From contig CAXHJY010000058.1 of NCBI GenBank assembly GCA_964016885.1, positions 1-15,374 on the forward strand: a stretch of 15,374 nucleotides of DNA. Direction: 5' to 3'. The stretch comes from Eledone cirrhosa (lineage: Eukaryota). The position numbers were made by a program, and so were the translations under genes. Shown one piece after another: positions 421-8,943 of the stretch. The notes under the pieces were generated by a model, which made no database searches, was not told where the DNA came from, and saw nothing but the letters and a program-made list of their open reading frames with translations. Each line of letters starts with the position of its first letter. Position 1 is the first letter of the stretch.

Positions 421-617
421 ATGTCTGAGAGTGCTGGACTTACCTATAAGCTACATAAGCTATAGCTTAGAGCCAGGCATCATCAGAGGCCTCATTTTTA
501 AAAGATGTATTTTTATTTTGTCAGTTTTTTTTTCATCAAAACTTATATATATATATTATATATATACTATTATGATAAAGGAACAAGGATTCAGTGTTGC
601 ATCAAAACATATTTAAT

Positions 618-711
618 AGCATATTACATATGTTTCACTAACGATGAGCTCGAGGAAAGACCTATTATAGATCGAACCTGACACTGTAATCGAAAGATCG
701 TCAGATATGCT
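618..711 (-). ncRNA. Type I hammerhead ribozyme-like motif (Penelope/retrozyme type) with a 48-nt insertion after the CUGANGA box
   Basis: Minus strand reads AGCAUAU-CUGACGA-[48 nt]-GCU CAUCGUU AGU-GAAA-CAUAUG-UA-AUAUGCU. It has a perfect 7-bp stem I, both conserved boxes, a palindromic stem III (ACAUAUGU) and a GUA site at 627-625. Confidence 0.55.
627..709 (+). ncRNA. Variant hammerhead-like motif, copy 1 (ACGAUGAG...CGAAAG...GUC)
   Basis: ACGATGAG 641-648, GGAAA 654-658, ACTG 683-686, CGAAAG 691-696, GTC 700-702. The same motif order occurs at 845-943 on the minus strand. Confidence 0.4.
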
Positions 712-776
712 TCCTATATAATCTCGTCTGCCGAGTGCTCAACCGGCATAGCGCCTACGGACGCATTTTTTCTTGC

Positions 777-779
<3 letters not shown>

Positions 780-814
<35 letters not shown>
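780..814. repeat. (TA)17 microsatellite
   Basis: Pure TA run between the two hammerhead-like elements. Confidence 0.95.
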
Positions 815-943: not shown

Positions 944-1114
944 CCGTTTCAATACACGTTTCAGATTCAAAATCTTGTAAAGCAAATACAAAAAGTACAT
1001 TTTATTTTGTCCCAACATTCTAATATCCATCTGTTTTCAATTTCAAATAAATAAATAAATATCTATATTCTCTAGGCAATAAGTATCAGCGTCCCTCAAG
1101 GTTTTTTGTAGCAA

Positions 1115-1670
1115 TACATGTTTGGCAAGTGACTTGATCTGAGACTGTAATGACTTGATCTGAGATCGTGTTATACAAGTCTGGCAAGTAACTTGATCTG
1201 AGTGTGTGTTGTAATTGTTTGGCAAGTGACTTGATCGAAGACTGTAGTGACCTGATCTAAGACTGTAGTGACTTGATCTGAGATCATGTTGTTATACAAG
1301 TCTGGTAAGTGACTTGATCAGAGACTGCATGTTGTAAATATCTCGCAAATGACTTGATCTGAGAAGACTGTGTGTTGTAAATGTCTGGCAAGTGACTTGA
1401 TCTGAGACTTGTAAATGTCTGGCAAATGATTTGATCTGAGACTGTGTTGTATATGTCTGACAAGTGACTTAATCCAATACTGTGGTGACTTGATCTGAGA
1501 TTGTTGTACATGTCTACAAATGATTTGATCTGAAATTGTTGTACATGTTTGGCAAGTGATTTGATCTGAAACTCTGTTGTATATATCTGACAAGTGACTT
1601 GATCAGGGATTGTGTTGATCAGGGACTGTGTTGTATATATCTGACAAGTGACTTGATCAGAGATTGTATG
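1115..1670. repeat. Minisatellite, ~38-bp unit GTCTGGCAAGTGACTTGATCTGAGACTGTGTTGTATAT with ~20-bp short variants
   Basis: About 17 copies of the (T)GACTTGATCTGAGA core, read directly. A further degenerate unit lies at ~1725-1756. Confidence 0.92.
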
Positions 1671-2257
1671 TTGAAACTAAAGCAGTTACATCGTGAAAGA
1701 GTCATTTTTACCACAACTGCACTTGTCTGGCACGTAACTAGATCTACGTCTGTGTTGAAACTAAAGCAATTACTTCATAGAAAAGTAATTTTAGCCATTC
1801 AAAAACACACAAAATCTTTTAATTTCCTTTTACATTTATAATTGAATTTTCTGTGTCAAACTTTTCGTCGGACTATTTGAGACTTGATCACTGACACAAT
1901 TTCCCTACAACTATGCAATAAATAGTTTTATGTAAACATATTTAATTCTACGAGGCTACAAAATCCTAGGTAAAGTAATATACAATCTCCCAAACTAAAC
2001 AAAGTCGGCGACAAGATCAGCAGATAGAATCATAATGAAAATACGGATTATCCTGTCAGAACACTCCTGTTGCGCCGAGAGAAATAAAATGAGTTTTGTA
2101 TCAAAGAACATTGTAAGGCAGTGTCGGACAAACAAAAAGACACGTTGCACATACCTTACTGATCGGCTAGAAATAGTAGCTAAATAGTCCTCAAAATAAA
2201 TAACTGTAGTGATTATGGTAGTTTTATAAAATTTAGATAAAACAACTCGAGTCCTCC

Positions 2258-3384: not shown

Positions 3385-3951
3385 TCAACAGAACTTCACA
3401 AAATTCGCAAGGAAAAAGATTCATAAAACCTGCAAATGCAAATATTATGTATATGATAATAAGGTATGTACAGAATGTTTTGGGTCAATATAAAGCTATT
3501 GTAGTTGACAAAACTTCACAAAATACGAAAGGAAAAGGATTTATAAAATCTGGTAATACAAATATTGTGTAACTTTACTTTGATAACTTTGATAGGTTTC
3601 GACCAGTATTGGCGCATGTCTAACTTAATAGCACCAACTGGCATGCATATGATAATTGTTTCTACTTTTGGCACAAGGCCAGCAATTATCCCAGTGCATT
3701 ACTGGTACTTTATTTTATCGACCCCGTGAGGATGAAAGGCAAAGTTAACCTGATAATAAGGTATGTACATCTATATATGTAACCAAATCTTTTGGGTTAA
3801 TATAAAGTTATTGTATTTGACAAAACTTTACAAAATTCGCAAGGAAAAGGATTATTAAAATCTGGAAATGCATATATTATGTATAGTATATGATAACAAG
3901 GTATGTACATCTATATATGTAACCAAATTTTATGTCAATATAAAGTTATTG
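3385..3951. repeat. Three-unit tandem repeat (~120-140 bp), second unit interrupted by two insertions
   Basis: CTT(C/T)ACAAAAT at 3394, 3514 and 3826; AAGGTATGTACA at 3461, 3758 and 3898. Confidence 0.88.
3657..3750 (-). mobile_element. 5'-truncated tRNA-derived SINE with a 7-bp TSD
   Basis: Closely matches the 3' half of the 5431-5618 copy. TGATAAT is duplicated at 3650-3656 and 3751-3757. Confidence 0.88.
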
Positions 3952-4061
3952 CAAAACGTTTACTGTAATGAAAAAAGATATATATGAAATAAATGATTAA
4001 TATAAAATAAGATATTTATCGTAAGGATTTGATTTGGACATAATATTATATTATATATAAT

Positions 4062-4171
4062 CGTTTCTCCTTTTGGCACAAGGCCAGCAATTATTCCAGT
4101 GCATTACTGGTGCTTTATTTTATCGACCCCGTAAGGATGAAAGACAAAGTTAAGCTCGACAAGATTTGAAC
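4062..4171 (-). mobile_element. 5'-truncated SINE of the same family, cut within box B
   Basis: GGCACAAGGCCAGCAATT...ATCGACCCCGTAAGGATGAAAG...GATTTGAAC aligns to 5431-5540. Confidence 0.88.
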
Positions 4172-5417: not shown

Positions 5418-5430
5418 TTATATATATAAT

Positions 5431-5618
5431 TGTTTCTATTTTTGGCACAAGGCCAGAAATTATGCCAGTGTATTACTGGTACTTTATTTTATCGACCCCG
5501 CAAGGATGAAAGGCAAAATTAACCTCGGCGGGATTTGAACTCAGACCACAAAGGGCCGTAACTCTTTGCTGCAAAGCATGGCGTCCGACCCTCTACCGAT
5601 ACTGCCAATCCACCGCCC
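5431..5618 (-). mobile_element. Full-length tRNA-derived SINE (octopus-type) with a 13-bp TSD
   Basis: Pol III box A TGGCAGTATCGG (5607-5596) and box B GAGTTCAAATCC (5542-5531). Central GCCTTTCATCC..GGGGTCGATAAAATAAAGTACCAG domain. TTATATATATAAT at 5418-5430 and 5619-5631. Confidence 0.93.
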
Positions 5619-8182: not shown

Positions 8183-8504
8183 AAACGTTCTGCACAAACC
8201 CGGCAAAATATCTCAACGCTTTTCAACTTTTTCTCTCCGTCGTTTGCTTCATTCTTTAATAATTATCCGAAGAATGACTTTGCTCGAAAATCATCTTTAG
8301 CTTTTATTTCACTTCTATCATATCTAGCTATCTATCTTTCGCTCTCTTCCTCACCCCCCCCCCCCCCACACTCTCTCTCTCTCTTATATATATATATATA
8401 TATATATATAAGCAAAAGGGATATTCAATTTGTTGGTAATTCAACAAATATAAATGTTTATAACTGATTCAAAGCACTCGACAAGTTTTCTGGAGTATAA
8501 TATG

Positions 8505-8658
8505 CAATGATATTAAATAAATGGAAACTATATTTTTAAAACCATATTTATTCTATTATATATATTTCAAGGGTACCAATGTTTTGGTACCCTTGAAATA
8601 TATGTAATAGAATAAATATGGTTTTATAAATATAGTTTCTATTTATTTAATATCATTG
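8505..8658. repeat. Near-perfect palindrome: 75-bp arms, 4-nt spacer
   Basis: 8505-8579 versus the reverse complement of 8584-8658 differ at 3 positions by my alignment. Confidence 0.93.
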
Positions 8659-8734
8659 TGTGTGTATATATATTCTTTTTCTTTTCTTTTCAATGGCTGA
8701 CAATACCTTACCGGCGCCACTCAAATAAGGTAGT

Positions 8735-8870: not shown

Positions 8871-8941
<71 letters not shown>

Positions 8942-8943
<2 letters not shown>

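What the first reader, a model, noticed from the sequence alone, without database searches (positions are those of the whole stretch)
618..711. Canonical hammerhead core on the minus strand, split by a 48-nt structured insert and overlapping a hammerhead-like motif on the plus strand
Seen: minus strand AGCAUAU/CUGACGA/[697-650]/GCU-CAUCGUU-AGU/GAAA/CAUAUG/UA/AUAUGCU. Removing the 48-nt segment, which is bounded by a CGA direct repeat, leaves a minimal type I hammerhead. Its G-U closing pair of stem II could be a deaminated CpG. The insert folds (AGG..GAUCUA-UAA-UAGGUC..CCU), and CUGACGAU can alternatively pair with AUCGUUAG, which would mask the core. Known: minimal type I hammerheads with palindromic stem III typify Penelope-like pLTRs and can cleave as dimers; hammerheads in both polarities typify viroid-like RNAs. 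Inference: this is an ambisense or conformationally switched ribozyme module, or a hammerhead inactivated by insertion.
Basis: partly seen in the sequence, partly recalled or inferred. Interest (0 to 1): 0.72.

Follow-up and report, generated by a model that had tools for sequence, protein, structure and literature searches.

The report
Long-armed hammerhead of Hydra-clade retrotransposon
This is a decayed end-piece of a known kind of animal jumping gene (Penelope-like, Hydra clade) carrying a predicted self-cutting RNA motif whose long second arm is shared by the whole family rather than being an insertion; the supposed second ribozyme on the other strand is not real, and the RNA likely cuts only when two copies pair.

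Summary
The minus-strand hammerhead core is real and exactly placed. The 48-nt 'insert' is part of a constitutive 61-nt stem II: 134 of 171 aligned copies have exactly 61 nt, and the insert-less form has 0 genome hits against 277 for the long form. Across 12 lineages the core is nearly invariant (1 of 12 positions varies, against 70 of 82 others) and the stems covary. The plus-strand motif has an intact core in 0 of 171 copies. The perfect masking helix is in 2 of 171 and needs a private mutation.

The motif lies in the pLTR of a Hydra-clade Penelope-like element; the window's own subfamily is joined to RT/GIY-YIG ORF remnants. The window copy is two head-to-head truncated arms in a (TA)n tract. 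The U.U closure of stem II is already published for Hydra hammerheads. The 61-nt arm (published Hydra arms 12-26 nt) with a conserved AG/G loop is the only unusual feature, and this copy has damaged it. Cleavage and expression are untested. The scan noted long-armed Hydra hammerheads before on other DNA of this genome.

The parts
544..566 (.). TA-rich tract at the short 3' end of the element (target microsatellite)
   Evidence: sequence; family copies end in (TA)n at this point
565..734 (-). 5'-truncated pLTR arm carrying the hammerhead; ends at the family's 'short' end, about 60 nt 3' of the predicted cleavage site
705..711 (-). stem I, 5' strand (pairs with 624-618)
   Evidence: 92% of cells paired; 3 of 6 pairs with two-sided change
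698..704 (-). catalytic core C3-A9 (CUGACGA); N7 at 700
   Evidence: N7 takes all four bases; other core positions nearly invariant
646..686 (-). family-conserved 2x1 AG/G internal loop (683-682 opposite 649) and flanking helix; damaged in this copy by A>T at 683 and G>C at 646
633..636 (-). core G12-A15.1 (GAAA)
626..633 (-). palindromic stem III ACAUAUGU, predicted dimerisation site
   Evidence: 8-bp self-duplex -7.0 kcal/mol; ACAAUUGU-type variants in distant relatives
624..625 (-). predicted cleavage site, after GUA (A17 = 625)
   Evidence: hammerhead numbering; untested
618..624 (-). stem I, 3' strand
732..779 (+). second, inverted arm: the distal part of the family's ~80-nt 3' tail, ending near the 'long' end
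732..734 (.). head-to-head junction of the two arms; 3 nt fit both arms
   Evidence: sequence compared with family copies
780..814 (.). (TA)17 tract at the long 3' end
678..702 (+). plus-strand look-alike CUGACAC...GAAA...GUC: rejected, not a hammerhead

Best explanation
Window 565-779 is a decayed, two-armed insertion of the 3' end (pLTR) of a Hydra-clade Penelope-like retrotransposon in a (TA)n tract, and 618-711 is that element's single, minus-strand type I hammerhead motif with a family-wide 61-nt stem II, which likely cleaves only as a dimer and is predicted to be misfolded in this copy. Shown: family membership, linkage to the ORF, conservation of the core, covariation of the stems, the palindromic stem III, and the one-long/one-short arm ends. 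Inferred: in a multi-pLTR transcript two motifs would pair through ACAUAUGU and free the cleavage site, perhaps helped by the element's protein. The insertion was likely made by priming reverse transcription at two fixed sites in uncleaved RNA, about +60 and +145 nt from the cleavage site, one from each nicked DNA strand. The long arm likely serves as a binding or folding module, because it keeps its pairing and an AG/G loop.
For: Family: 146 exact hits of a 24-nt core pattern and 277 hits of a core pattern with a 45-75-nt spacer, both with control 0; 4 of the 100 listed hits are unrelated sequence. Selection: over 12 lineages 1 of 12 core positions varies against 70 of 82 others (Fisher p 2e-7). 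Structure: 86.8% of 703 cells paired and 15 of 32 pairs with two-sided change, 0 of 500 shuffles as high; slid controls 29-45% (22 hand-picked copies). ORF link: a family hammerhead lies downstream of ORF remnants in the same orientation in 9 of 20 regions (one is only a 42-nt piece), and beside them in 10 of 20 further regions (four of these were picked because they lay near earlier hits). The window's own subfamily is joined to the ORF in L298 and L308 and follows it in L299. [quoted passage not shown] Ends: 52 of 61 head-to-head insertions have one long and one short end, 0 long-long, 1 short-short (43 of 52 without the 9 loci found with the window's own arrangement; a few are segmental duplicates). 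Only 3 of 274 arm starts lie within 3 nt of the cleavage site. This fits two internal RT start sites and uncleaved template in PMC11167929.
Against: No cleavage or expression data. Every ORF copy I saw has stops or frameshifts, and no pLTR-ORF-pLTR direct tandem was found for this family, so the dimer context is inferred. Pfam GIY-YIG hits are below the cut-off (E 6e-4 and 7e-3). The clade call rests on motif comparison by eye, not on a tree. The 10.1/11.1 pair is a standard pair in only 10 of 22 aligned copies. The distal hairpin is less well kept (74% paired), and RNAalifold prefers a different register for the distal arm and does not predict stems I and III. Stem II stability is modest (z -0.3 to -3.0). 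Related sequences can beat the shuffle control without structure.
Confidence: 0.85

Rival explanations
1. A minimal hammerhead was inactivated, or made switchable, by a 48-nt insertion in this copy or its lineage.
For: Deleting 697-650 gives a tidy minimal fold on paper; a 3-nt CGA repeat flanks the segment; the masking helix is the monomer MFE of this copy.
Against: 0 genome hits for the insert-less form; shortest stem II among 171 copies is 33 nt; the arm covaries and the core stays conserved across lineages that all carry it; the CGA repeat is lost where N7 is G, A or U; the perfect masking helix is in 2 of 171 copies.
Confidence: 0.04
2. An ambisense, viroid-like module with hammerheads in both polarities.
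For: CUGA...GAAA...GUC can be read on the plus strand at 678-702.
Against: CUGACAC (family CUGACUC) lacks G8 and A9; 0 of 171 copies have the core; GAAA is kept in 77 of 171; position 15.2/16.2 is G.G in the window; the letters are the complement of the minus-strand stem II. Hammerheads on both strands in this family come from inverted arms.
Confidence: 0.01
3. The motif is kept as a structural or protein-binding RNA element and cleaves little or not at all in vivo.
For: Insertion ends ignore the cleavage site; predicted probability of the open-core monomer fold is 0.02 or less in all groups; hammerhead mutants did not affect insertion in vitro in PMC11167929; PLE hammerheads cleave weakly in PMC4209133.
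Against: The conservation pattern follows catalytic rules precisely (N7 free, H17 never fixed as G, palindrome kept through two-sided change).
Confidence: 0.15
4. A stand-alone non-autonomous retrozyme family rather than a PLE terminus.
For: Most copies are short and lack coding sequence.
Against: The same sequence is contiguous with PLE ORF ends through a 3' UTR in several subfamilies; no tandem monomer arrays (1 direct pair within 1.3 kb, from two different subfamilies).
Confidence: 0.05

Closest known systems
Hydra-clade PLE hammerheads (Craig et al. 2021, PMC8557442; sections 3 and 11, passages, File S1/S2 tables and alignment passages read)
   Same: C-terminal GIY-YIG without CCHH, CxCx5C linker, (TA)n targets, inverted 5'-truncated arm, tail at one end only, type I hammerhead with palindromic stem III; U.U at 10.1/11.1 in 14 of 26 Hydra rows of File S2.
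   Different: Stem II is 61 nt with internal loops, against 12-26 nt in the Hydra rows; tail about 80 nt against 30-40 bp; long 3' UTR with a purine-pyrimidine repeat tract. Its hammerhead differs from that listed for Hydra-1_Obim.
Minimal PLE hammerheads (Cervera and de la Pena 2014, PMC4209133; parts 1-2 of 4 read)
   Same: In pLTRs, type I, palindromic loop 3, dimer model, larger-than-usual helix II, pairs on opposite strands.
   Different: There G10.1-C11.1 is highly conserved and helix II is 6-8 bp; here the closure is U.U, C.A or G.U and the arm is far longer.
Poseidon PAc of Anolis (Frangieh et al. 2024, PMC11167929; parts 1-2 of 4 read)
   Same: Two internal RT start sites define the tail; AT-rich targets; both strands extended; uncleaved RNA used; AC-rich start region (the long end here is AC-rich).
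   Different: Different clade; there the hammerhead overlaps the start codon and is protein-assisted by experiment; here nothing is tested.
Avsunviroidae and viroid-like RNAs with hammerheads in both polarities (PMC6466107, passages)
   Same: Only the double-hammerhead principle.
   Different: No plus-strand core, no evidence of a circular replicon; this is a genomic retroelement end.

Membership tests
Type I hammerhead ribozyme | Core CUGANGA / GAAA / UH | tested here: met
   intact in 125 of 171 copies (89 of 134 not picked by a core pattern)
Type I hammerhead ribozyme | Stems I, II, III form and covary | tested here: met
   distal arm register less certain
Type I hammerhead ribozyme | G10.1-C11.1 pair | tested here: not met
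   U.U in the window; 1 G-C in 171. Not required in Hydra hammerheads: U.U in 14 of 26 published rows
Type I hammerhead ribozyme | Rfam hammerhead model match | tested here: not met
   likely because of the long stem II (inference)
Type I hammerhead ribozyme | Self-cleavage | not testable with these tools
   needs in vitro assay
Penelope-like element pLTR | Contiguous with an RT plus C-terminal GIY-YIG ORF | tested here: met
   Pfam GIY-YIG weak
Penelope-like element pLTR | 5' truncation, inverted arm, tail at one end | tested here: met
   52 of 61
Penelope-like element pLTR | Direct pLTR-ORF-pLTR tandem | tested here: inconclusive
   none found among loci held; search not exhaustive
Hydra clade | CxCx5C linker | tested here: met
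   L207, L246, L256, L257 translations
Hydra clade | No CCHH cysteines between GIY and YIG; CxxC and CxH around E/N | tested here: met
Hydra clade | RWK and DKT motifs | tested here: inconclusive
   L298 has HKT at the DKT position; the N-terminus with RWK is truncated away in this family; RWK seen in a related family, L071
Hydra clade | (TA)n insertion | tested here: met
Hydra clade | RT phylogeny | not tested
   only motif comparison with the supplement alignment
Ambisense viroid-like RNA | Hammerhead cores in both polarities | tested here: not met
   0 of 171
Non-LTR retrozyme | Non-coding tandem units each with a hammerhead | tested here: not met
   ORF linkage

The most novel reading that the evidence does not exclude
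The 61-nt stem II is a selected module with a 2x1 AG/G loop that recurs in unrelated long-armed Hydra hammerheads and docks the element's RT-endonuclease, so that cleavage is gated by both RNA dimerisation and the element's own protein: a protein-switched natural hammerhead class that standard descriptors miss.
Probability: 0.25. Interest if true: 0.55.

Novelty: new variant of a known kind. Interest (0 to 1): 0.3.

Why it matters
The striking readings (ambisense, switch, insertion) fall away. What remains is a long-armed variant of a published Hydra-clade hammerhead that Rfam does not detect and that exceeds the 7-17 nt and 35-50 nt core spacers searched in PMC8557442. The subfamily series gives ready natural variants to test what the long arm does and whether PLE hammerheads need the element's protein, which is an open question. 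The one-long/one-short end rule is a clean genomic match to the two RT start sites seen in vitro.

Tried and rejected
Rfam: no hammerhead hit. Insert-less form: 0 hits. Plus-strand hammerhead: rejected. Walking upstream by eye through the repeat tract first suggested a non-coding family; neighbouring PLE ORFs in L071, L077 and L087 proved to be other families with their own ends. I first labelled the ORF Neptune-like from memory; the published motif definitions put it in Hydra. Search for the tail running on into a 5' UTR or ORF: 37 hits listed, most followed by microsatellite; the 5 fetched gave no such continuation. RNA: no RNA holder listed, so no evidence either way; the three contig sets laid only show about 1,000 family pieces each. 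Tail hairpins are predicted but show 0 two-sided changes in 7 sequences. Lunse et al. (PMC5785218) is not held and is known here only through PMC6765202 passages. Literature searches for a long-stem-II or cephalopod PLE hammerhead found nothing beyond PMC8557442; the supplementary figures of PMC4209133, bioRxiv supplements and subscription papers were not seen and may hold such variants.

Full report
Observation. The core spacing occurs once in the window, against 0.01 expected. Rfam does not detect it. The monomer MFE pairs the core with 645-638 and masks it.

Family. The window lies in an unnamed 3.0-Gb genome; an earlier scan note calls it octopus-type, which I did not test. The stretch 565-779 is a dispersed repeat: 146 exact hits of a 24-nt pattern and 277 hits of a core pattern with a 45-75-nt spacer (4 of the 100 listed are unrelated), with reversed controls of 0. 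These are lower bounds. From 274 profile hits in the loci then held I kept 171 full-span, de-duplicated copies. They form six groups of 6-68 copies plus pairs and singletons; the window's group is on average 7% from its majority sequence.

The insert is not an insert. The span between A9 and G12 is 61 nt in 134 of 171 copies and never under 33. A pattern for the insert-less form has 0 hits. Seven of eight group majority sequences fold this span into the same interrupted rod. On 22 hand-picked copies, 86.8% of 703 cells pair and 15 of 32 pairs change on both sides, with 0 of 500 shuffles as high and slid controls at 29-45%. Against this: relatedness can inflate that test, the distal hairpin is only 74% paired, and RNAalifold picks another register for the distal arm.

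The core is under selection. Over 12 lineages, 1 of 12 core positions varies against 70 of 82 others (p 2e-7), while N7 takes all four bases and the stem III palindrome switches between ACAUAUGU and ACAAUUGU types. Position 10.1/11.1 is U.U (52), C.A (43), G.U (34) or C.U (19), and G-C only once. This is published for the clade: 14 of 26 Hydra rows in File S2 of PMC8557442 have U.U, though their stem II spans only 12-26 nt.

No ambisense motif, no selected switch. The plus strand has CUGANGA in 0 of 171 copies and GAAA in 77. The masking helix is perfect in 2 of 171 copies and has 3-7 of 8 pairs in the lineages; the window's version needs a private change at 641. The window also carries private changes at 683 and 646 that damage a conserved loop and helix. 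Its open-core fold is 3.2 kcal/mol above the MFE, with probability 0.003, against 0.012 for its group. A partial (7 of 8) alternative register does exist in the window's subfamily, but the group MFE keeps stem II.

What carries it. The family order is ORF end, 3' UTR with a purine-pyrimidine repeat tract, about 200 unique nt, hammerhead, short end, ~80-nt tail, long end. A family hammerhead follows ORF remnants in 9 of 20 regions and lies beside them in 10 of 20 more (four picked for proximity to earlier hits). The window's subfamily is joined as an inverted arm to a long ORF remnant in L298 and to a shorter one in L308, and follows an ORF end in L299. The protein has a CxCx5C linker, a GIY-YIG domain without the CCHH cysteines (Pfam E 6e-4, below cut-off), and RT motifs like the Hydra rows of the published alignment. 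This is a comparison by eye; no tree was built. All ORFs seen are broken.

How the copy arose. The window holds two head-to-head arms joined at 732-734 inside TA tracts. Of 61 head-to-head insertions, 52 have one long and one short end, none has two long ends and one has two short ends; without the 9 loci found with the window's own arrangement it is 43 of 52. Ends cluster about 40-70 and 140-150 nt downstream of the cleavage site, and 3 of 274 arm starts lie at the site. I infer priming from both nicked strands at two fixed sites in RNA uncleaved at this hammerhead, as found in vitro for PAc (PMC11167929) and as drawn for PLE tails (PMC8557442).

How the ribozyme likely works (inferred). In the monomer the duplicated AUAUGU offers competing pairings that bury the cleavage site. 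An 8-bp intermolecular stem III (-7.0 kcal/mol) would relieve this, as in the dimer model (PMC4209133; PMC6765202 passages). A lone, mutated copy like this one is likely inert. There is no RNA evidence either way.

How unusual. In 1.6 Mb of held loci a strict descriptor found 138 distinct hammerheads (reversed control 0), with stem II from 12 to about 99 nt and mostly non-G-C closures, in many unrelated families. Long arms are therefore common in this genome, and earlier scan notes report them on other DNA. A 2x1 AG/G loop is in 7 of 12 lineages and in 3 of 26 unrelated clusters against 0.03 expected, but I defined it after seeing those families, so this is a lead and not a test. Searches found no paper on such long-armed PLE hammerheads; unseen supplements and subscription papers may hold one. 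File S2 itself lists a plant PLE hammerhead with a stem II of about 54 nt. Part 1 of 5 of bioRxiv 10.64898/2026.07.22.740005 and passages of PMC6155905 were read for background.

Verdict. A real hammerhead motif in a known kind of element, with a long-arm variant worth a bench test. Interest 0.3.

Noticed in passing
window 1110-1760: Degenerate tandem array with a period of about 38 nt (and 21-nt sub-units) sharing a GTGACTTGATCTGAGA core.
   Followed up: no
window 8460-8660 and 8940-9020: Near-perfect inverted repeat centred near 8580, with a partial copy at 8940-9020; looks like a head-to-head junction of another pLTR family, with a CTGA...GAAAC stretch that does not fit the canonical core.
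   Followed up: no
window 9045-9165 and 9600-9710: Two direct copies of a ~115-nt sequence, and an inverted piece near 9735-9765 next to TA tracts; possibly the tail of another Penelope-like family.
   Followed up: no
window 11870-13500: GC-rich degenerate LINE (RTE-like) reverse-transcriptase remnant on the plus strand (translation 12164-12706; family label recalled).
   Followed up: no
window 3647-3766, 4052-4171, 5421-5540: Three copies of a ~120-nt SINE-like repeat (family D20) that is also common in the fetched loci.
   Followed up: no
L071 2900-7100 (minus) and L087 4400-6500: A near-complete unrelated Hydra-type element (RWK motif, CxCx5C linker) whose hammerhead has a 79-nt stem II, U.U closure, GUU site and the same AG/G loop; its tail runs on into the 5' UTR.
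   Followed up: partly
L121, L133, L134: PLE ORF end followed by a short AT-rich tandem array with repeated CTGATGA and GAAAC motifs, near-identical at three loci.
   Followed up: no
L265 3400-4750: A whole two-armed insertion of the related subfamily duplicated in tandem (651-nt unit).
   Followed up: partly
L207, L086, L298: A ~350-nt tandem unit with a small-stem hammerhead (14-nt stem II, U.U closure) sits next to several family insertions; likely a retrozyme.
   Followed up: no
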